UHGV virus genome: UHGV-1374414
Origin: a virus
Reading direction: 5' to 3' (one strand)
Length of the DNA: 45,123 nt
Shown here: positions 2,893-8,957 of the stretch, one piece after another
How positions within the stretch are numbered: the first letter of the stretch is position 1
How the letters are laid out: the number at the start of each line of letters is the position of its first letter
Position numbers and translations under genes: made by a program
Notes under the pieces: model-generated
What the model was told of the DNA's origin: nothing
The model's input: the letters and a program-made list of their open reading frames with translations, nothing else
Databases searched by the model: none

Positions 2893-3414
2893 ATGTTTGA
2901 GCAAATCGTAAACCTGATCACTCGCGGCGTAGTAGCACTGGAAACCATCGCTAAACATTATGAAACCGTTGGCGCTGCCGTTGGTAAGCAGGAAGACAAG
3001 AAGCCGTCTAAGGCGAAAAAAGAAGTTGTCGAAGATGACGACGATGATGCCGAAGACGAAAAACCGGCTAAATCTAAAAAAGCACCGGCGAAAGGTAAGG
3101 CCAAAAAAGAAGTCGTAGCAGATGACGACGATGATGCCGAAGACGAAGACGAAAAACCGGCGAAAGCTAAAAAAGCACCGGCGAAAGGCAAAGGTAAGAA
3201 AGATGCCGATCCGCTGGCGGAGATGCGCGACGAAATCAAACAGTATGCCGCGATTATCGCTGGTGGAGATGACGACGATGCGAACGACGAATTCGACGAC
3301 CTGCTGGAATCGTTCGAGATCAAATCAATCGCCAAGCTGGAAGATGACGACGTCGAAGACTTCCACAAAGAGCTAAAAGAAATTGTCGAAACCTATTTCG
3401 AACTGGAAGATTAA
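2893..3414 (+). CDS. highly charged acidic/lysine repeat protein (first early gene)
   Basis: 173 aa; SD GGAG 7 nt upstream; repeats of DDDDDAEDE-KPAKSKKAPAKGK; terminator immediately downstream. Confidence 0.8.
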   Translation: MFEQIVNLITRGVVALETIAKHYETVGAAVGKQEDKKPSKAKKEVVEDDDDDAEDEKPAKSKKAPAKGKAKKEVVADDDDDAEDEDEKPAKAKKAPAKGKGKKDADPLAEMRDEIKQYAAIIAGGDDDDANDEFDDLLESFEIKSIAKLEDDDVEDFHKELKEIVETYFELED

Positions 3415-3422
3415 TATATTCC

Positions 3423-3449
3423 GGCCCGCTAATCTGCGGGCCTCTTTTT
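3423..3449 (+). terminator. intrinsic terminator
   Basis: ggcccgc-taatct-gcgggcc hairpin followed by tcttttt. Confidence 0.65.
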
Positions 3450-3462
3450 AGAGGACGAGACA

Positions 3463-3714
3463 ATGGCACGCTTCACGCTAATCGAGGCGGTGGACTCCCG
3501 CGACCAGAGCCCATATTATTGGCTTTTCGAACGCATCGGCTATTTTCAGTCACGCGTTGCCGTAATAGACAAACGCCGCAACACCCCCGCGCAAATTAAG
3601 CGCACCACCTTTATTAATCCCGACTTTTATATTTGGGCGGATTCCAATCTGGAATTTGTTCGCTTCGCAGTTGCATCCGAAGCAAAAACAATCGACCGCT
3701 GGGAGACAAAATAA
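3463..3714 (+). CDS. hypothetical protein
   Basis: 83-aa ORF; SD GAGGA upstream. Confidence 0.55.
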   Translation: MARFTLIEAVDSRDQSPYYWLFERIGYFQSRVAVIDKRRNTPAQIKRTTFINPDFYIWADSNLEFVRFAVASEAKTIDRWETK

Positions 3715-3902
3715 TGACTGTATTCTTTGTTTCATTTCGTTGCCGTATCACTGGCGACGAGCTACCAGAAATAATTAGGCATGAGAACTGGCTTTGCTGT
3801 TGGGGGAAAGCCTGCGACCTGGCTTTGACAATGAACGAAGACGCGAAGCGGGCCAATGTTAAACACGACTATTACATTGCTCAATTTTCAAGGGTGGAAT
3901 AA
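3714..3902 (+). CDS. hypothetical small protein
   Basis: ATG overlaps upstream stop (TAATG); 62 aa, MTVFFVSF...; ORF-track start 3633 lies inside upstream gene. Confidence 0.45.
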   Translation: MTVFFVSFRCRITGDELPEIIRHENWLCCWGKACDLALTMNEDAKRANVKHDYYIAQFSRVE

Positions 3903-5332
3903 TGGCGATTAAACCAAAACGTAAAACGCAATCCGGTAGCAATACGGAACACTCATTACTCGGGCCATCCGGTGCTAAAAAATGGATGGGTTGCCCCGCC
4001 GCCCTGGTGGTAGAACAAGGTATCCCGAACGAATCCGGGCAAGCGGCAATTAACGGTACGAGTATGCACACCGTATCTGAAGTCGTGCTCAACCGCATTA
4101 TCGCCGGTGAGAAGCTGATAACCGCGAAGACGTACAAAGGGTGCTACGTCGAGAACGAAGGCAAGGGACCGGTGAAGGCACACCCGAAAGCACCGAAAGG
4201 CGGCGTACTGGTAAACGACGACATTGTGAAACAGTGCGACGCGTACATCGACCACTGGCGACCGCTCCTCGAAGTGGCGGAGTTTGTTCAGCTTGAGATG
4301 CGCGCCGATCTTACCCGCGTCCTACACTCGGGCTTCGAGATCGACGGCAACCGGGTTAAGACGTTCGGCACTGCCGATATGGTCATGGTCATGAAGAAGA
4401 CCGACGGCACGTACATGCTGATTGTTGGCGACCTGAAGACGGGACGGCATAAGGTCGAGGCGAAAGAAAACAAACAGCTTATGTTGTACGCGCTCGGCCT
4501 GCTGCGCAAGCTGAAAACTATGTACGACATTACAACCGTGCGCCTGGTTATCTTCCAGCCGTATTGCGGCGGGGCGTCGGAGTGGGATATTACAGTGGAA
4601 GCGCTGGAGATATTCGCGAAGTTTGCGTCCAAGCGTGCTATCGCCGCCCTGGAAGCGTACGCCCGCGGCAAAAAGGGACTCACCCGTGCCGACTTCCGAC
4701 CGAGCGTTGATGCGTGTCAGTGGTGCCGATTTGCGGATCAGTGTAGTGCCCGCGCTAAGGCCGCAATCGACACGATGACCCCACCAACGGCAACAGACGA
4801 AGACCTGGGCGACGACGTGAGTATTGCGACAGAGGAAGAATGCGCCAATCACGACCGCAATATGGCCCGCGAAGCCCGCAAAGCGGCACGACGTGAGAAG
4901 CGTGGTAAGAAAGAAGCGGCCCCCGGCGCTATGACCGCCGCGGAACTTCGCAAGGCATATGAAGGTCTTGACGCAATGCGCCAGCACATCAAGGCTATCG
5001 AGTCCGCGGTGTTCAAGGCCGTAATGGCGGGTGATGGCGAATCGCTGGGCCTCAAGATGGTTGCCGGTAAGGAAGGAATCCGCAAGTGGGCGGACGAGAG
5101 CGAAGTGATTGAAATCTTCACGAAGGCCCGGATCAAACGCGATGTGATGTACAAAGAAACATTGCTCAGTCCTACGGATGCCGAGAAGGTACTGAAGGAC
5201 GAGAAGCCGAAAGTGTGGGCGAAGTTGTGTGATAAAATCACGCGCGCACCGGCTAAACCTGTATTAGCGCCCATTGACGACCCGCGCCCTGCGTGGTCTG
5301 AAGCTACCGACGAGGACTTAAGCAATGAATAA
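3902..5332 (+). CDS. PD-(D/E)XK nuclease, Cas4/RecB-like (DUF2800-like) exonuclease
   Basis: 476 aa; N-terminal LLGPSGAKKWMGCPA; GDLKTGRHK and QLMLYA motifs; C-terminal Cys cluster CQWCRFADQC; start overlaps upstream stop. Confidence 0.7.
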   Translation: MAIKPKRKTQSGSNTEHSLLGPSGAKKWMGCPAALVVEQGIPNESGQAAINGTSMHTVSEVVLNRIIAGEKLITAKTYKGCYVENEGKGPVKAHPKAPKGGVLVNDDIVKQCDAYIDHWRPLLEVAEFVQLEMRADLTRVLHSGFEIDGNRVKTFGTADMVMVMKKTDGTYMLIVGDLKTGRHKVEAKENKQLMLYALGLLRKLKTMYDITTVRLVIFQPYCGGASEWDITVEALEIFAKFASKRAIAALEAYARGKKGLTRADFRPSVDACQWCRFADQCSARAKAAIDTMTPPTATDEDLGDDVSIATEEECANHDRNMAREARKAARREKRGKKEAAPGAMTAAELRKAYEGLDAMRQHIKAIESAVFKAVMAGDGESLGLKMVAGKEGIRKWADESEVIEIFTKARIKRDVMYKETLLSPTDAEKVLKDEKPKVWAKLCDKITRAPAKPVLAPIDDPRPAWSEATDEDLSNE

Positions 5333-5657: not shown

Positions 5658-6440
5658 ATGGCTAAAGTCAACCTGAAAAATGTGCGCGTATGTTTCCTGA
5701 AAATTTGGGAACGTGATACCCCTAAACAGGATGGACAAAAACCGGCATACCGCGCCGTGATTCTTCTTGATAAAGAAGATCCGCAGGTGGACAAAGTGGA
5801 AGCGGCAGCGCGCGCAGTGCTCACCGACAAGCTGAAATCCGAGAAGAATGCCGATAAGTGGATGGACCGCCACTACGCCCAGGATTCTAAGGAATGTGCA
5901 GTTCGCGACGGCGACGAGCGCGATGAAGTAACCGAAGAGTTCGAAGGCATGTTGTACATCAACGCCAAATCGTTCAAACAGCCTAACATCCAAACGTCAC
6001 TGGGCGAGAAGCAGACCGAGCAAGGTCTGACCGTAGAAGGCGACGAGATCGAAGGCCAGGAAATCTATTCCGGTTGCTATTGCAACGTGTCCCTCGATAT
6101 CTGGGCGTGGAACAACACCAACGGCAAGGGACTCGGCGCTGGCTTGCTGGGTTTACGCTTCCGGGATGACGGTGAAGCCTTCGGCGGTGGCGGGTCTTCT
6201 TGCTCCGATGAAGACTTGGGCGACGATGACGAAGATGAAGCACCGCGCAAGTCCAAAAAGTCAAAACGTCGCGATGACGATGATGAAGACGACAAGCCGC
6301 GCAAGTCCAAAAAGTCCAAGCGCCGCGATGACGACGACGATGAGGAAGATGAAAAACCTCGTAAACGTCGTAAGCCACGCGATGACGAAGATGAGGACGA
6401 CGACGAAGACGAAGCGCCACGCAAACGTCGCCGCCGTTAA
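5658..6440 (+). CDS. putative ssDNA-binding protein (DUF2815-like) with charged C-terminal repeat tail
   Basis: SD GAGG about 10 nt upstream of ATG 5658; MAKVNLKNVRVCF... N-terminus; C-terminal repeats of DDDDEDD-KPRKSKKSKRR; gene order nuclease-SSB-polymerase. Confidence 0.6.
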   Translation: MAKVNLKNVRVCFLKIWERDTPKQDGQKPAYRAVILLDKEDPQVDKVEAAARAVLTDKLKSEKNADKWMDRHYAQDSKECAVRDGDERDEVTEEFEGMLYINAKSFKQPNIQTSLGEKQTEQGLTVEGDEIEGQEIYSGCYCNVSLDIWAWNNTNGKGLGAGLLGLRFRDDGEAFGGGGSSCSDEDLGDDDEDEAPRKSKKSKRRDDDDEDDKPRKSKKSKRRDDDDDEEDEKPRKRRKPRDDEDEDDDEDEAPRKRRRR

Positions 6441-6458
6441 GGGCAAGGCCCACTATTC

Positions 6459-6484
6459 AAGCCCGCTTAATGCGGGCTTTTTAA
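6459..6484 (+). terminator. intrinsic terminator
   Basis: gcccgc-ttaat-gcgggc hairpin followed by ttttt. Confidence 0.65.
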
Positions 6485-6498
6485 TAGGACAATGAAAA

Positions 6499-6669
6499 AT
6501 GCGCATTAAAGCCAGCGAAGTAAAAGTCGGAATGCAGGTATGGTCCAAATTGCTGGGCGAGTATTTCACCGTTGCCGAGATTCGCAACAATGGCGAAGAG
6601 ATTGCCCTGTCTGACGGCATCTTCTCCATGATCGGCAGCGCTGACGCCGTAGTGAGGATTAAGCAATGA
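6499..6669 (+). CDS. small hypothetical protein (56 aa), translationally coupled to DNA polymerase
   Basis: ATG 6499 with AGGA upstream; stop overlaps polymerase ATG (ATGA); below the ORF-track length cutoff. Confidence 0.4.
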   Translation: MRIKASEVKVGMQVWSKLLGEYFTVAEIRNNGEEIALSDGIFSMIGSADAVVRIKQ

Positions 6670-8957
6670 AAGACTTCGAACGCCTTTTTCTCGATACCGA
6701 GACATTTAGCGGGGTGGACCTGAAGAAAGTGGGCGCATACGCCTACGCAGAACACCCAACAACCGAGATTATGATTTGCACGTACGCCATAGACGAGGGC
6801 CGCGTGCAGACATGGGATTGCACCGAGTCCCCAACAATGCCGCGTGAACTGCGCAAGGCGCTCCGCCAGGTATCCCGCAAGAAAGCAAAAATAGTGATGG
6901 CTAACGGCCTCCTGTTTGACCGCCTGGTTATTCGCGAGAAGTGGGGCATTGACCTGCCGGTAGGCCAGATCGAGGATACCATGATTATGGCCTTTCGCCA
7001 CGCGCTGCCGGGTAGCCTCGATATGCAGTGCCAGGTGTTGGGCGTCGACGCAGAGCACGCGAAGGATAAGGCGGGCAAGGCGCTGATCAAACGATTCTGT
7101 AAGCCAACCCCCAAGACCTACAAAATCCGCCGCTACACGCGCGAGACGCACCCCGAGGAGTGGGCTAAATTCCTGCGCTATGCCGCACTGGATATTATAG
7201 CGATGAGGGAAGTCTATTGGCGCATACCGGACTGGGGTAACACGCCGAAGGAAGATGAAATCCTGCTTATTGACCAGTTGATCAACGACCGCGGCTTCTA
7301 TGTGGACGTTGACCTGGCGAACGCCGCGATCAAAGCGGTGCAGGCGCATAAGGAAGAATTGAAGGAAGAAGCATGGGAGCGCTTCGGCGGTAAGCTGACA
7401 GGCAATGACTTCCTGCCAGCGCTGCGCGACCTGGCGCCTGCGTTCACAATCCACAACGCGCAGAAATCCACGCTTAACGACCTGCTGGAAGACCCGGACT
7501 TCCCCGACGAGGGCAAAGTGCTTATCGAGATGCGCCTCGGTGCGTCATCAACGGCATCGACTAAGTACAATCCGCTCGTTAATGGCTTATCCGCAGATGG
7601 TCGCCGTCGTGGGTGTCTCCAGTATGGCGGGGCGAAACGCACGCTACGCTGGGCGGGCAAAGGCTTCCAGCCGCAAAACCTGGCGCGTGGCGAGTACAGC
7701 GACGACCACGAAGGGAAGATTAAACGCCGCGAGGGTGAAAGCGACGTCTCGTTTTGGGTCCGGTCGCACATGCTCACCAACGGCATCAACTCCCTGTTAC
7801 GCGGGACCGCACACTGGGCGTATGACATATCGAAGCTAACCGCCTCGACCGTTCGCGGGTGCATCATTCCGGCGAAGGGCAAGAAGTTTGTCGTCGCGGA
7901 CTACTCCAACGTGGAAGGGCGTGGCCTTGCCTGGATCGCGGGCGAGAAAACCGCGTTAATGGTGTTTAAGGCCGGACGCGATATCTATTGCGAGACTGCC
8001 GGTAAGATGTTCGGCCTTGACCCGGACTACATTAAATCTAACCGCAAGGACTTACGTCAGATCGGTAAGGCGTGCGAATTGGGGTTGGGCTATGGCGGCG
8101 GCGTTGCGGCGTTCTTGCAGTTCGCTAAAAACCTGGGCCTCGACCTTTACACTATGGCTGACGTCATGAAAGGCACGTTCCCGGATCACATTTTGGCGGC
8201 GGCGAAACGAGGCTATGAGTACGCCCGCATTAACGAAGCGAAGCGCCCGCCGAAGCCTGGTAAGAAAGACGAGCGCCCAACTTACATACTGCCGAAAAAC
8301 GTATGGCTGACGTGCGACGCGATCAAACGTATGTGGCGTGAGGCTCACCCGAAGACGGTAGCCTTTTGGGCCGAGCTTGAGGACGCGGTGTTGTGTGCAA
8401 TCCGCAATCCGGGCAAAGCATACTGGGCTGGCGCTAACGTTCGCCCGGACGGTAGGAAAGCGCTCAAGATTGTTCGCACGAAGGCGAAGCACGACCCAAC
8501 CTTTGACGAGGAGCGCGACGACCCGGACGCCGCGGGGTGGTGGTTGAAAATTGAGTTGCCGTCGGGGCGCATCATGAGCTACCCCGGCATCGCGTTGTCT
8601 GTCACGACCGAGATTGACGAAGACACCGGCAAGAAGCGCACCAGCACACGCATTAAATATCAGGGCGAGAATCAGACGACGCGCCAGTGGGGCTTCCAGT
8701 ATACCTACGGCGGCAAACTGACGGAGAACATCGTACAGGCGTTATGCCGTGATATTCTCGCCTGGTCAATGCCAGGCGTTGAAGCCGCGGGCTATGAAAT
8801 CGTTCTATCGGTGCATGATGAATTGATCACCGAAGTGCCGGACACCGACGACTACACGACCGATGAGCTTTGCGCGCTGATGTGCGACCTGCCTATTTGG
8901 GCGAAAGGCTTCCCTCTTGCCGCAGAAGGCGATTGCATGTATCGCTACCGCAAGTAG
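6666..8957 (+). CDS. family A DNA polymerase with 3'-5' proofreading exonuclease domain
   Basis: 763 aa; Exo motifs FLDTETFS and YAALD; polymerase motif A DYSNVEGRGLAW, motif B RQIGKACELGLGYGGG, motif C SVHDE. Confidence 0.9.
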   Translation: MKDFERLFLDTETFSGVDLKKVGAYAYAEHPTTEIMICTYAIDEGRVQTWDCTESPTMPRELRKALRQVSRKKAKIVMANGLLFDRLVIREKWGIDLPVGQIEDTMIMAFRHALPGSLDMQCQVLGVDAEHAKDKAGKALIKRFCKPTPKTYKIRRYTRETHPEEWAKFLRYAALDIIAMREVYWRIPDWGNTPKEDEILLIDQLINDRGFYVDVDLANAAIKAVQAHKEELKEEAWERFGGKLTGNDFLPALRDLAPAFTIHNAQKSTLNDLLEDPDFPDEGKVLIEMRLGASSTASTKYNPLVNGLSADGRRRGCLQYGGAKRTLRWAGKGFQPQNLARGEYSDDHEGKIKRREGESDVSFWVRSHMLTNGINSLLRGTAHWAYDISKLTASTVRGCIIPAKGKKFVVADYSNVEGRGLAWIAGEKTALMVFKAGRDIYCETAGKMFGLDPDYIKSNRKDLRQIGKACELGLGYGGGVAAFLQFAKNLGLDLYTMADVMKGTFPDHILAAAKRGYEYARINEAKRPPKPGKKDERPTYILPKNVWLTCDAIKRMWREAHPKTVAFWAELEDAVLCAIRNPGKAYWAGANVRPDGRKALKIVRTKAKHDPTFDEERDDPDAAGWWLKIELPSGRIMSYPGIALSVTTEIDEDTGKKRTSTRIKYQGENQTTRQWGFQYTYGGKLTENIVQALCRDILAWSMPGVEAAGYEIVLSVHDELITEVPDTDDYTTDELCALMCDLPIWAKGFPLAAEGDCMYRYRK

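What the first reader, a model, noticed from the sequence alone, without database searches (positions are those of the whole stretch)
6180..6440. SSB-like protein ends in an unusual mixed-charge repeat tail sharing the (D/E)n-KP-x-K-SKK unit with the first early protein
Bacterial SSB tails are acidic and mediate partner binding. Here the tail alternates acidic runs with KPRKSKKSKRR, the same unit type as in 2893-3414, although the DNA is not identical. The shared motif may be a common interaction module.
Basis: seen in the sequence. Interest (0 to 1): 0.4.

Follow-up and report, generated by a model that had tools for sequence, protein, structure and literature searches.

The report
Charge-striped disordered tail on phage SSB

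Summary
The window is a Dhillonvirus (HK578-like coliphage). ORF 5658..6440 is a gp2.5/Enc34-type SSB (Pfam PF10991, E=1.4e-31; the AlphaFold model matches the Enc34 SSB and T7 gp2.5). Residues 175-260 (nt 6180-6440) are predicted to be disordered. They comprise a Gly hinge, a conserved acidic motif SDEDLGDDDEDE, then four [x-Pro-basic]/[acidic] units, ending APRKRRRR-COOH. Charge segregation is far beyond chance (kappa 0.54 against 0.10 in shuffles, 0 of 5000).

The tail type is conserved across Dhillonvirus, Eiauvirus, Guernseyvirinae and metagenomic relatives, with 1-5 units. It is under purifying selection (pN/pS 0.08) and always has x-Pro at acid-to-basic boundaries. About 10% of the sampled DUF2815 clusters carry mixed-charge tails; the rest have classical acidic tails with a hydrophobic tip.

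The first gene of the operon (2893..3414) belongs to a large uncharacterised family with an N-terminal helix, a disordered linker and a three-helix domain. Its linker carries the same unit in every mixed-tail lineage and in none of four acid-tail contexts. The DNA of the two regions is only about 67-69% alike.

I read the tail as a selected, multivalent electrostatic variant of the SSB tail; this mechanism is inferred, not shown. A separate motif, [ST]DxDL, is shared by the SSB and the DUF2800 nuclease and is a better candidate for a docking motif. New variant of a known kind; moderate interest.

The parts
5658..6440 (+). SSB gene (260 aa), gp2.5/Enc34-type (DUF2815)
   Evidence: ORF. An AGGA ribosome-binding site lies 9 nt upstream of ATG 5658. 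Pfam PF10991 E=1.4e-31. phrog_112 E=1.8e-55. PDB sequence hits 4klk, 4jg2, 5odj.
5658..6179 (+). OB-fold ssDNA-binding domain (residues 1-174)
   Evidence: AlphaFold pLDDT is 93-98 over residues 1-170. Foldseek: Enc34 SSB with ssDNA 5odl E=2e-12, T7 gp2.5 1je5 E=1.6e-6.
6183..6203 (+). Gly/Ser hinge GGGGSSC
   Evidence: Sequence. The AFGG(G/A/S) hinge is conserved in all relatives.
6204..6239 (+). Proximal acidic motif SDEDLGDDDEDE ([ST]-D-x-D-L core)
   Evidence: Present in 82/86 SSBs of related loci. Equivalent to the DDFDDLGDD of acid-tailed family members.
6240..6272 (+). Basic block 1, APRKSKKSKRR
   Evidence: part of the 54-nt tandem repeat.
6273..6293 (+). Acidic block 2, DDDDEDD
6294..6326 (+). 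Basic block 2, KPRKSKKSKRR
   Evidence: Between units 1 and 2, 5 of the 7 differing codons are synonymous.
6327..6353 (+). Acidic block 3, DDDDDEEDE
6354..6380 (+). Basic block 3, KPRKRRKPR
6381..6413 (+). Acidic block 4, DDEDEDDDEDE
6414..6437 (+). C-terminal basic block APRKRRRR, the most conserved unit; it is the only unit in Jersey- and Kagunavirus
6459..6483 (+). Hairpin plus T-run (terminator-like) after the SSB gene
   Evidence: Read directly in the sequence: AAGCCCGC-TTAAT-GCGGGCTT followed by TTTT. The consensus scan did not list it. vB_Eco_CS16 and vB_EcoS_WFI annotate a terminator here.
2893..3414 (+). First gene of the rightward operon (173 aa; phrog_3127, no Pfam): N-terminal helix, disordered linker, acidic three-helix C-domain
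   Evidence: AlphaFold: helix 2-26, residues 27-106 at pLDDT about 40, helices 107-168 at pLDDT 84-91. Sigma-70-like promoters at 2566-2594 and 2668-2697, hairpin at 3423-3442.
2992..3174 (+). Linker units EDKKPSKAKK (2992-3021), EDDDDDAEDEKPAKSKK (3031-3081) and DDDDDAEDEDEKPAKAKK (3121-3174), within the 93-nt tandem repeat 3009-3188
3902..5332 (+). DUF2800 / PD-(D/E)XK nuclease that carries the SSB's acidic motif twice
   Evidence: Pfam PF10926 E=1.7e-65.
4793..4807 (+). Internal TDEDL (ATDEDLGDD), followed by a Dhillonvirus-specific mixed-charge insertion
   Evidence: (family D9); comparison with other genera.
5306..5320 (+). C-terminal TDEDL (ATDEDLSNE*)
   Evidence: 82/84 related nucleases have [DE]xDL within their last 9 residues.

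Best explanation
The region encodes the intrinsically disordered C-terminal tail of a gp2.5/Enc34-type phage SSB. In this tail the classical acidic tail has been elaborated into tandem [acidic block]-x-Pro-[basic block] units that end in a poly-Arg C-terminus instead of the usual acidic-hydrophobic tip.

Shown here: the tail is disordered; it is charge-segregated far beyond chance; it is kept by selection on the protein rather than the DNA; and it is conserved, with variable copy number, across a clade of enterobacterial siphophages.

Inferred mechanism: the tail acts as a multivalent electrostatic element. The acidic blocks, beginning with the conserved [ST]DxDL motif, would do the classical tail jobs known for T7 gp2.5 and Enc34 ORF6, namely occupying the DNA-binding groove off DNA and docking partner proteins. 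The P-K/R blocks would neutralise the acidic blocks in cis or in trans and contact nucleic acid. Neighbouring SSB molecules, and proteins carrying the same block pattern (the operon's first protein; the nuclease insertion in Dhillonvirus), would then associate on ssDNA. In logic this resembles T4 gp32, where a short basic K/R/S/T motif on one monomer binds an acidic surface on the next to give cooperativity.
For: SSB identity; literature.

Disorder: tail pLDDT is 51-67 with no secondary structure.

Non-random charge pattern: kappa 0.54 against 0.10, with 0 of 5000 shuffles reaching it.

Conservation: every relative at 41% identity or more carries such a tail, with 1-5 units. There are further, probably independent, cases in distant DUF2815 members (P0110, P0115, P0118-P0120, P0253, P0266, P0278, P0295, P0309) and in a DUF669/phrog_378 SSB-type protein.

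Selection on the protein: tail pN/pS is 0.084 against 0.05 for the OB domain, with similar pS (0.25 against 0.21) and no charge reversals. Indels among 151 Dhillonvirus records are almost all multiples of 3.

Defined polarity: of 145 acidic-run ends that are not the DL motif, 124 have Pro at +2, while basic-to-acid junctions have none. The Pro and Arg codons differ between units (CCG/CCT/CCA; CGC/CGT).

Net charge stays mildly negative (-1 to -12) whatever the length.

Co-occurrence with the early-protein linker: 77/86 SSB ORFs and 66/75 early-protein ORFs carry the unit, against 11/1310 other ORFs. The unit is present in both proteins in the distant marine lineage L087. It is absent from the early-like protein in four acid-tailed contexts, L090-L093.

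Precedents: removing the Enc34 tail changes ds/ssDNA discrimination; the gp32 LAST motif; charge blockiness drives condensation of disordered regions (PMC9106583, 10.1101/771592).
Against: No binding, cooperativity or condensation was or could be tested; the mechanism rests on analogy. Unit number is flexible (isolates with 1-4 units are viable), so no single internal unit is essential. The early-protein linker can lose all its acidic runs (P0202, P0212, P0218), so pattern-matched co-assembly is not obligatory. Same-genome against cross-genome unit similarity is only marginal (p about 0.04). The co-occurrence counts are phylogenetically clustered, with few independent origins. From my own knowledge, not checked here: highly charged linkers reduced rather than increased cooperativity when swapped into E. 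coli SSB.
Confidence: 0.45

Rival explanations
1. One reading: the (D/E)n-x-P-K/R unit is a specific short linear motif recognised by one folded receptor (phage polymerase, helicase-primase or a host protein). The SSB and the early protein compete for or co-occupy that receptor.
For: The x-Pro boundary and the terminal P-R-[RK]-x-R-R are conserved from Dhillonvirus to Jersey- and Kagunavirus at 37-39% OB identity. The unit is almost confined to these two proteins. Units in one genome look alike: KPRKSKK and KPAKSKK here; EDEAPKR and EDEAPKK, DEPAPRR and DEPAPKK in L087.
Against: Internal basic blocks differ widely in length (6-14 residues) and sequence between lineages, and copy number varies. 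The early-protein unit can be lost. Co-variation is marginal (p about 0.04). No receptor is identified. The units are R-rich in most SSBs but K-rich in the early protein.
Confidence: 0.2
2. The tail is a tolerated low-complexity expansion. Slippage or unequal recombination in GAY/GAR/AAR-rich codon runs generates acid/base repeats in any disordered segment of these genomes. They act only as a spacer plus generic acidic tail, with no function tied to the basic blocks.
For: Tandem DNA repeats are present in both genes. Copy number varies among near-identical phages. Both regions are predicted to be disordered.
Against: Tail pN/pS is 0.084, close to the OB fold, with the same synonymous divergence. 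A basic C-terminus and the x-Pro polarity are kept across genera. Net charge is held in a narrow range. The motif is absent from about 99% of other ORFs in the same loci.
Confidence: 0.2
3. The Arg/Lys blocks are mainly nucleic-acid-binding arms (arginine-rich-motif, SPKK or AT-hook-like). They give this gp2.5-like protein extra duplex, primer or annealing activity; the acidic blocks merely keep them soluble or auto-inhibited.
For: The family is annotated as 'ssDNA binding and annealing protein'. Variants read SPRK or TPRR at the boundary. The terminal PRRERRRR and PRKRRRR resemble arginine-rich motifs (my own knowledge). Tail-less Enc34 SSB gains dsDNA binding, which shows that the tail tunes DNA selectivity.
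Against: S/T before Pro is not conserved (A, K and R are commonest). There is no R-G-R-P core. Net tail charge is negative, so strong DNA binding by the free tail is doubtful. Untested.
Confidence: 0.12
4. The repeats work at the DNA level (iterons or origin, a recombination hotspot, or a programmed frameshift site) and the protein pattern is a by-product.
For: There are direct repeats of 54 and 93 nt. Long alternative-frame ORFs overlap the tail. Two database proteins read the +1 frame (P0004, P0006).
Against: Synonymous sites diverge as fast as in the OB domain. The repeat copies differ mostly at synonymous positions. The DNA repeat is not conserved between genera, whereas the charge pattern is. 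In vB_EcoS-22664B1 the shift is a 2-nt insertion, after which the normal frame still encodes an intact tail and its stop, so it looks like a sequencing error or a very recent lesion.
Confidence: 0.03

Closest known systems
Enterobacter phage Enc34 ORF6 / DUF2815 SSBs (PF10991; PDB 5odj, 5odk, 5odl, 4klk, 4jg2)
   Same: Same family by sequence and predicted fold. Same gene neighbourhood (DUF2800 nuclease upstream, family-A polymerase downstream). An unstructured C-terminal segment starts with an acidic motif right after the OB fold.
   Different: Enc34 and most of the family (about 125 of 150 sampled cluster representatives) have a purely acidic tail of 20-40 residues ending in a hydrophobic tip. 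Here the tail is about 86 residues, has 28 basic residues in four blocks, and ends in RRRR.
T7 gp2.5
   Same: Same OB-fold variant (Foldseek E=1.6e-6). In T7 the acidic tail competes with ssDNA for the groove and docks the polymerase and the helicase-primase, and the helicase shares a similar acidic C-terminus. That parallels the [ST]DxDL motif shared here by the SSB and the nuclease.
   Different: gp2.5 needs its C-terminal Phe. This protein has no aromatic or hydrophobic C-terminus, and its acidic motif is internal.
E. coli SSB (disordered linker plus DDDIPF tip)
   Same: Modular layout of OB domain, disordered linker and interaction motif. Some distant DUF2815 members with mixed-charge repeats even end in DDEIPF (P0119), so in those proteins the repeats are a linker before a host-like tip.
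   Different: A different OB family (tetrameric). The E. coli linker is Gly/Gln/Pro-rich and nearly uncharged. In the Dhillonvirus clade the tip is missing.
T4 gp32 N-terminal basic 'LAST' motif (K-R-K-S-T) with acidic core or C-domain
   Same: A short K/R/S/T-rich segment and acidic segments in one SSB, used for neighbour-to-neighbour cooperativity and autoregulation. RKSKKSKRR is compositionally like (K/R)3(S/T)2.
   Different: An unrelated protein. In gp32 the motif is N-terminal and single, not C-terminal and tandemly interleaved with acid. The analogy is functional only and untested.
Blocky mixed-charge disordered regions of eukaryotes (Ki-67 repeats, R/D-R/E mixed-charge domains of nuclear-speckle proteins)
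   Same: High fraction of charged residues with strong segregation (kappa about 0.5). In those systems blockiness drives electrostatic self-association and condensation.
   Different: A bacterial virus, a much shorter region, and no evidence here of condensates.
Histone H1 / SPKK / AT-hook-type basic DNA-binding repeats
   Same: x-P-K/R-K/R turns followed by lysine or arginine runs. The early-protein linker KPAKSKKAPAKGKAKK is H1-like.
   Different: S/T before Pro is not conserved, there is no RGRP core, and every basic run is paired with an acidic run.

Membership tests
Enc34/gp2.5-type SSB (Pfam PF10991, DUF2815) | Sequence match above the curated Pfam threshold | tested here: met
   110 bits against a cut-off of 26, E=1.4e-31, residues 3-193. 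phrog_112 E=1.8e-55.
Enc34/gp2.5-type SSB (Pfam PF10991, DUF2815) | gp2.5-like OB-fold variant | tested here: met
   AlphaFold pLDDT 93-98 for residues 1-170. Foldseek 4klk E=5e-13, 5odl E=2e-12, 1je5 E=1.6e-6.
Enc34/gp2.5-type SSB (Pfam PF10991, DUF2815) | Binds ssDNA | not testable with these tools
   Indirect only. The SECphi4/18 orthologues (same tail type) are the genetically identified trigger of Retron-Eco8, with escape mutation T56P in the OB domain.
Enc34/gp2.5-type SSB (Pfam PF10991, DUF2815) | Unstructured, net-acidic C-terminal tail ending in a hydrophobic or aromatic residue | tested here: not met
   The tail is unstructured and net -8, but it has 28 basic residues in four blocks and ends in RRRR. 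About 125 of 150 sampled relatives do have the classical tail.
Enc34/gp2.5-type SSB (Pfam PF10991, DUF2815) | Gene neighbourhood DUF2800 nuclease - SSB - family-A polymerase | tested here: met
Bacterial SSB-Ct tip (D-D-D-I-P-F type) | Acidic residues followed by a hydrophobic C-terminal tripeptide with free carboxylate | tested here: not met
   The C-terminus is APRKRRRR. The tip is present in distant relatives such as P0119 (DDEIPF) and P0319 (DDIPF).
T4 gp32 LAST motif | (K/R)3(S/T)2 segment at the N-terminus that binds the neighbouring monomer | tested here: inconclusive
   The composition is similar (RKSKKSKRR), but the position is C-terminal and repeated and the protein is not homologous. 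The function cannot be tested.
SPKK / AT-hook DNA-binding motifs | S/T-P-K/R-K/R turn, or an R-G-R-P core | tested here: not met
   The window has APRK, KPRK, KPRK, APRK. Across 62 distinct tails the residue before Pro is A (44+5), K (29+6+3), R (23), S (7) or T (3). There is no RGRP.
Blocky mixed-charge disordered region | High fraction of charged residues, both signs, segregated into blocks (high kappa), disordered | tested here: met
   Fraction of charged residues 0.82; kappa 0.54 against 0.10 in shuffles; pLDDT 51-67.
Blocky mixed-charge disordered region | Drives self-association or condensation | not testable with these tools
   Needs purified protein.
Iterons / origin repeats inside a gene | Several near-identical direct DNA repeats conserved at DNA level | tested here: not met
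   2.3 copies at 80%. Differences between copies are mostly synonymous. pS in the tail equals pS in the OB domain.

The most novel reading that the evidence does not exclude
The acid-xPro-basic block pattern is a phage-encoded 'charge barcode'. It co-assembles the SSB, the conserved uncharacterised first protein of the operon and, in Dhillonvirus, the DUF2800 nuclease through its mixed-charge insertion into one electrostatic assembly or condensate on ssDNA. It has arisen more than once: in the Dhillonvirus/Guernseyvirinae clade, in the marine lineage L087, and in a DUF669-type SSB with a K-rich neighbour (L088). In each case the disordered regions of different proteins of one replication module evolve the same 'flavour'.
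Probability: 0.15. Interest if true: 0.7.

Novelty: new variant of a known kind. Interest (0 to 1): 0.45.

Why it matters
SSB tails are the hubs through which replication, recombination and repair proteins are recruited. All textbook cases (E. coli SSB, T7 gp2.5, T4 gp32, Enc34 ORF6) are acidic. Here a large, easily cultured group of coliphages and Salmonella phages (Dhillonvirus, Jerseyvirus, Kagunavirus and others) has replaced the acidic-hydrophobic tip with Pro-Arg/Lys blocks that are kept under purifying selection. That implies a different way of regulating or connecting the SSB.

It also gives a first handle on a family of at least 1,900 uncharacterised proteins (phrog_3127 and relatives) that always sits at the head of the DUF2800-DUF2815-PolA operon.

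These SSBs are sensed by defence systems such as Retron-Eco8, and Dhillonviruses can be rebuilt in vitro, so tail engineering is directly testable. If the tail proves to drive cooperative or condensate-like assembly, it would be a compact natural model for how charge patterning works in a bacterial virus.

Tried and rejected
1. Fold search of the early-protein model against the PDB found nothing significant (best E=0.48). Weak hits to small three-helix bundles, including the Red-beta C-terminal domain, are uninformative.
2. Pfam, and PHROG function labels, for the early protein and its analogues in other contexts: all 'unknown function'.
3. Co-variation tests (same-genome against permuted pairings) gave only p about 0.04 for SSB units against early-protein units and p about 0.03-0.04 for the SSB acidic motif against the nuclease C-terminus. 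I treat these as suggestive only.
4. The frameshifted tails P0004 and P0006 as evidence that the tail is dispensable: rejected. The vB_EcoS-22664B1 record has a 2-nt insertion after which the normal frame still encodes an intact tail.
5. A DNA-level role (iterons or a frameshift site): rejected on synonymous-site behaviour.
6. The anti-Tmn protein of Dhillonvirus is a different gene with a different fold description. The HK578 OLD-escape gene gp43 is the 83-aa neighbour, not the early protein.
7. Literature searches for mixed-charge, arginine-rich or polyampholyte SSB tails in phages found no description of this tail type. The Retron-Eco8 structural paper read (PMC13402713) worked with T7 SSB. 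Absence from this library does not prove absence from the literature.
8. Long antisense and +1-frame ORFs over the tail (6077..6424 on the minus strand; 6166..6495 on the plus strand) are mechanical consequences of the codon repeats. I found no support for them.
Full report
WHAT THE WINDOW IS. A megablast of 2800-6700 hits 156 phage records, 148 of them at 80% or more coverage and 80-95% identity. Nearly all are Escherichia or Shigella phages of the genus Dhillonvirus (HK578-like); the best is vb_EcoS_bov11C2 at 94%. The layout around the finding is conserved. A helicase-primase and a small HTH gene lie on the minus strand. Then comes a divergent promoter region, with sigma-70-like sites at 2566-2594 and 2668-2697 (HK578 annotates promoters at the equivalent place). 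On the plus strand follow a 173-aa gene (2893..3414), small ORFs, a DUF2800/PD-(D/E)XK nuclease (3902..5332), an 80-aa ORF, the gene of interest (5658..6440), a 56-aa ORF, a family-A DNA polymerase (6666..8957) and, further on, an SNF2 helicase.

CHECK OF THE OBSERVATION. The ORF most likely starts at ATG 5658, with AGGA 9 nt upstream; homologues begin MAKVNLKNVRV. It stops at 6438-6440. The tail reads FGGGGSSC / SDEDLGDDDEDE / APRKSKKSKRR / DDDDEDD / KPRKSKKSKRR / DDDDDEEDE / KPRKRRKPR / DDEDEDDDEDE / APRKRRRR*. Tandem Repeats Finder reports a 54-nt period at 6222-6347 (2.3 copies, 80%) and, in the other gene, a 93-nt period at 3009-3188 (2.0 copies, 87%).

The 78 residues from S183 hold 36 acidic and 28 basic residues (fraction charged 0.82, net -8). 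The charge-segregation parameter kappa is 0.54 against 0.10+/-0.04 in 5000 shuffles of the same residues, and none reach it. There are 7 sign switches against 31 expected. The linker of the 173-aa protein behaves the same way: kappa 0.42 against 0.12, 0 of 5000. It contains EDKKPSKAKK, EDDDDDAEDEKPAKSKK and DDDDDAEDEDEKPAKAKK. A regular-expression scan of all six frames of the window finds the acid-xP-basic pattern only in these two ORFs. The DNA of the matching stretches is only 60-69% identical.

THE PROTEIN IS AN SSB. Pfam gives PF10991 (Enc34_ssDNA-bd, formerly DUF2815) at E=1.4e-31 over residues 3-193. PHROGs gives phrog_112, 'Gp2.5-like ssDNA binding protein and ssDNA annealing protein', at E=1.8e-55. 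Sequence search of the PDB finds 4klk, 4jg2 and the Enc34 SSB 5odj. An AlphaFold model built on 113 sequences has pLDDT 93-98 for residues 1-170. Foldseek matches it to 4klk (5e-13), to Enc34 SSB bound to ssDNA (5odl, 2e-12) and to T7 gp2.5 (1je5, 1.6e-6). In the literature, the orthologues in the Dhillonviruses SECphi4, SECphi6 and SECphi18 are the genetically identified trigger of Retron-Eco8. Their escape mutation T56P lies in the OB domain, and their sequences in the supplementary table show the same tail type. That study displayed only residues 1-186 and left the 'flexible C-terminal residues' out. I found no description of the tail's composition.

THE TAIL ITSELF. In the model, residues 175-260 have pLDDT 51-67 and no secondary structure, so the tail is predicted to be disordered.

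In 120 homologues from the 5.8-billion-protein collection, every relative at 41% identity or more has an acid/base alternating tail, with total lengths of 210-290 aa. Most relatives below 38% identity are 172-200 aa long and have a purely acidic tail ending in a hydrophobic tip (DFV, DIFG, PLFG and the like). Annotated phages show the gradient:
- Jerseyvirus and Kagunavirus: one unit (SVDDLEDDEDE-APRRERRRNR*, NDLEDDEEDE-APRRERRRR*).
- Cornellvirus: two units, ending KRRSYEDDEE.
- Eiauvirus: three units.
- Dhillonvirus: two to four units.

Eighty further viral contigs gave 62 distinct tails. Three regularities stand out. (a) Right after the hinge comes an acidic motif with a Leu, [ST]-[DN]-D-D-L-[GDE]-D-D, in 82 of 86 SSBs. 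(b) Of 169 acidic-run ends, 24 are that DL motif. Of the remaining 145, 124 are followed by x-Pro at +2 (APR 44, KPR 29, RPR 23, SPR 7 and others), whereas basic-to-acid junctions are direct and never use Pro. The unit therefore has a fixed polarity: acid, x-Pro, base. (c) The last unit, x-P-R-[RK]-x-R-R(-R), is the best conserved and is the only one in the minimal tails. Net tail charge stays between -1 and -12 whatever the length.

SELECTION ACTS ON THE PROTEIN. Among Dhillonvirus genes with tails of equal length (6 pairs), pN/pS is 0.084 in the tail and 0.05 in the OB domain, with similar synonymous divergence (pS 0.25 and 0.21). None of the 24 replacements reverses charge. Units 1 and 2 of this window differ at 7 codons, 5 of them synonymous. 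The four boundary Pro codons are CCG, CCG, CCT, CCA. Among 151 records that match 6120-6500, length differences are almost all multiples of three (-57 to +12 nt). This argues against a neutral low-complexity stretch and against a DNA-level element.

Two database proteins read the +1 frame through the tail (P0004, P0006). I examined the record behind P0004 (vB_EcoS-22664B1). It has a 2-nt insertion after DDDLGD, and the normal frame still encodes an intact tail and its stop afterwards. So it is a sequencing error or a very recent lesion, and not evidence that the tail is dispensable.

HOW UNUSUAL THE TAIL IS IN THE FAMILY. An exhaustive HMMER search of 1.84 billion cluster representatives found 2619 relatives at E of 0.001 or better. 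Of the best 150, about 15 have mixed-charge tails and about 125 have classical acidic tails. The mixed ones include distant, probably independent cases: P0266 with a 170-residue R/D/S/G tail; P0309 with six DDDDDRGSRSRSR units; P0278; P0253; P0295; and P0110, P0115 and P0118-P0120 from the first search. Several of these keep an acidic-hydrophobic tip after the repeats, and P0119 ends in DDEIPF like E. coli SSB. In those proteins the repeats are a linker. In the Dhillonvirus/Guernseyvirinae clade the tip has been replaced by the basic end. This is the sharpest difference from T7 gp2.5 (which needs its C-terminal Phe) and from the bacterial SSB-Ct.

THE OTHER PROTEIN. The 173-aa product has no Pfam match; it hits phrog_3127, 'unknown function'. 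A profile search finds at least 1,898 members, none with a Pfam domain or a meaningful name. AlphaFold (39 sequences) gives an N-terminal helix (residues 2-26), a disordered stretch (27-106, pLDDT about 40) and a confident acidic three-helix domain (107-168, pLDDT 84-91). Foldseek finds nothing significant for it.

The two ends are nearly invariant within Dhillonvirus, but the linker ranges widely: whole-protein length runs from 115 to about 180 aa. Some variants (P0202, P0212, P0218) have no acidic run at all, though all keep a short Lys-rich piece. In every other genus the linker holds at least one acidic run followed by a KP-basic piece: EEEKPKRKPRKAK in Jersey- and Kagunavirus, EEKPKRKPRQAK in Cornellvirus, SEKPKRGKK and DDKPKRGRKK in Eiauvirus. 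Over the 86 loci a slightly looser pattern ([DE]{2,}-x-P-..K/R..K/R) occurs in 77/86 SSB ORFs, 66/75 early-protein ORFs, 15/84 nucleases (one fixed site) and 11/1310 other ORFs.

DO THE TWO TAIL TYPES TRAVEL TOGETHER? I looked at three kinds of context.

First, a marine metagenomic contig (L087). Its SSB is only about 32% identical, with four DDDEDEAPRRRR-type units before a DDEIPF tip. The same synteny holds, and the gene in the 'first' position reads ...DEDDDEPAPKKPAK...GEDEAPKKRASLID*, which is close to the SSB's DDEPAPRRRRKP and EDEAPKRSSR.

Second, four contexts whose SSB has a classical acidic tail (L090-L093). An analogous small protein (N-helix, linker, small helical domain; phrog_408, 18562, 22695, 7721, all unknown) precedes the nuclease. 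Its linker is Pro/Ala/Thr/Lys-rich or acidic and has no acid-xP-basic unit.

Third, an unrelated 65-kb phage contig (L088). A DUF669/phrog_378 SSB-type protein carries four DDEDDEDEKPAKGKK units, and a 135-aa Lys-rich protein 2 kb away carries DDEDDEKPAKKAKK.

So the 'flavour' of the disordered regions is shared within a replication module in at least two or three separate settings. The caveat is that most of the positive cases belong to one clade. A permutation test of same-genome against cross-genome unit similarity over 12 lineages gives only p about 0.04.

A SECOND SHARED MOTIF. The repeat finder paired 4796-4817 with 6207-6228 at 86% identity (family D9). The nuclease contains ATDEDLGDD internally (4793-4807) and ends in ATDEDLSNE* (5306-5320); the SSB has CSDEDLGDD. 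In 82 of 84 related nucleases the last nine residues contain [DE]xDL or [DE]DL. In the acid-tailed lineages both proteins use the Phe-containing form: DEFDDLSA* against ADDFDDIEE, LDDFD* against VDDFDD, FEDLAGAEDLV* against FEELETPDEEFV*. In the mixed-charge clade both use the Phe-less form. In L091 a GapR-like protein next to the SSB ends in NNDLV*, as the SSB does. Permutation tests are again only marginal (p 0.03-0.04), and the F/no-F split is a single evolutionary event. Still, the pattern recalls T7, where gp2.5 and the gp4 helicase share an acidic C-terminus that docks on the polymerase (established knowledge; summarised). In Dhillonvirus only, the internal nuclease motif is followed by a mixed-charge insertion (…EEECANHDRNMAREARKAARREKRGKKEAAP), absent from the other genera.

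HOW IT MOST LIKELY WORKS. Shown: a disordered, strongly charge-segregated tail, selected at the protein level, that keeps the family's proximal acidic motif, has lost the hydrophobic tip and ends in Pro-Arg/Lys.

Inferred: the acidic blocks retain the classical roles documented for T7 gp2.5 and Enc34 ORF6. There the tail lies in the DNA-binding groove of a neighbour and controls ss/dsDNA discrimination, and it docks replication partners. The interleaved basic blocks can pair with acidic blocks in cis, giving a self-neutralised tail off DNA, or in trans, linking neighbouring SSBs. They could also pair with the acidic C-domain or the like-patterned linker of the early protein, and they can touch nucleic acid. 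The closest functional precedent is T4 gp32, where a short basic K-R-K-S-T segment of one monomer binds an acidic surface on the next and produces cooperativity and autoregulation. Work on eukaryotic disordered regions shows that blockiness of this degree promotes electrostatic self-association. I put 0.45 on this electrostatic-multivalency reading.

The rivals are: a specific linear motif for one receptor (0.20); a merely tolerated expansion (0.20); a primarily nucleic-acid-binding or annealing arm (0.12); and a DNA-level element (0.03).

VERDICT. The finding is real, and its annotation as an SSB is correct. The 'unusual tail' is a genuine, conserved and apparently undescribed variant of the SSB C-terminal tail, so it is a new variant of a known kind. 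The suggestion that the unit is shared with the first protein of the operon holds at the level of a defined charge-block unit with an x-Pro boundary. That it is a discrete interaction module is not shown. Interest is moderate. The tail would surprise an SSB specialist mildly. It gives a handle on a very large uncharacterised protein family, and it is directly testable in tractable coliphages.

Noticed in passing
window 4793-4807 and 5306-5320 (DUF2800 nuclease 3902..5332); SSB 6204-6239: The nuclease carries the SSB's proximal acidic motif twice (internal ATDEDLGDD and C-terminal ATDEDLSNE*). Across 11 lineages the nuclease C-terminus mirrors the SSB motif: with Phe in acid-tailed lineages, without Phe in the mixed-charge clade. 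This may be a shared docking motif like the gp2.5/gp4 tails of T7.
   Followed up: partly
window 4808-4945 (nuclease residues about 303-348): A Dhillonvirus-specific insertion after the internal TDEDL motif is itself mixed-charge (…EEECANHDRNMAREARKAARREKRGKKEAAP). It is absent from the Eiauvirus, Cornellvirus, Jerseyvirus and Kagunavirus nucleases.
   Followed up: partly
window 2893..3414; L090-L093, L087: A small protein with an N-terminal helix, a disordered linker and a small helical C-domain (phrog_3127, 408, 18562, 22695, 7721; all of unknown function; at least 1,898 members for the phrog_3127-like profile) sits upstream of the DUF2800-DUF2815 pair in every context examined. Its role is unknown.
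   Followed up: partly
L088:8001-8834 and L088:10967-11374: An unrelated 65-kb phage contig has a DUF669/phrog_378 SSB-type protein with four DDEDDEDEKPAKGKK units. A nearby 135-aa Lys-rich protein has DDEDDEKPAKKAKK. The same unit type thus occurs in a second SSB family.
   Followed up: partly
L091:6001-6591 and L091:6595-6867: In an acid-tailed relative, the SSB and the adjacent GapR-like DNA-binding protein end in the same tip (…KNNDLV* and …DNNDLV*).
   Followed up: no
window 3463..3714 (83-aa ORF): Its HK578 counterpart by position and length, gp43, is reported to give escape from the P2 OLD defence when hit by a 1-nt deletion (bioRxiv 10.64898/2026.07.10.737580). Function unknown; phrog_4965.
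   Followed up: no
window 6499..6669 (56-aa ORF between SSB and polymerase): The SECphi18 homologue, nearly identical in protein sequence, appears with an E21 frameshift among defence-escape mutants in the supplementary table of 10.1101/2022.08.27.505566. I did not identify which defence system.
   Followed up: no
L094 (MZ234008.1, vB_EcoS-22664B1), locus 218-1027: The deposited SSB CDS is frameshifted by a 2-nt insertion after DDDLGD. The normal frame still encodes an intact three-unit tail, so this is probably a sequencing error. P0006 shows a similar shift.
   Followed up: yes
window 3423-3442: A GC-rich hairpin plus T-run lies directly after the first gene. This suggests that this gene can be transcribed as its own short unit from the strong promoter-like sites at 2566-2697.
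   Followed up: no
window 5983..6453 (-), 6077..6424 (-), 6166..6495 (+): Long ORFs in other frames overlap the tail (Ser-rich antisense; Thr/Lys/Met-rich +1 frame). They are a mechanical consequence of the GAN/AAR codon repeats. No support for coding was found.
   Followed up: partly
window 2893..3414, residues 128-140: Helix 2 of the early protein's C-domain reads (A/C)-(N/A)-D-E-F-D-D-L-L-E. This closely resembles the DUF2815 family's proximal tail motif (S-A-D-[DE]-F-D-D-L-x-D). The resemblance is not kept in the analogous proteins of acid-tailed lineages, so it may be chance.
   Followed up: no
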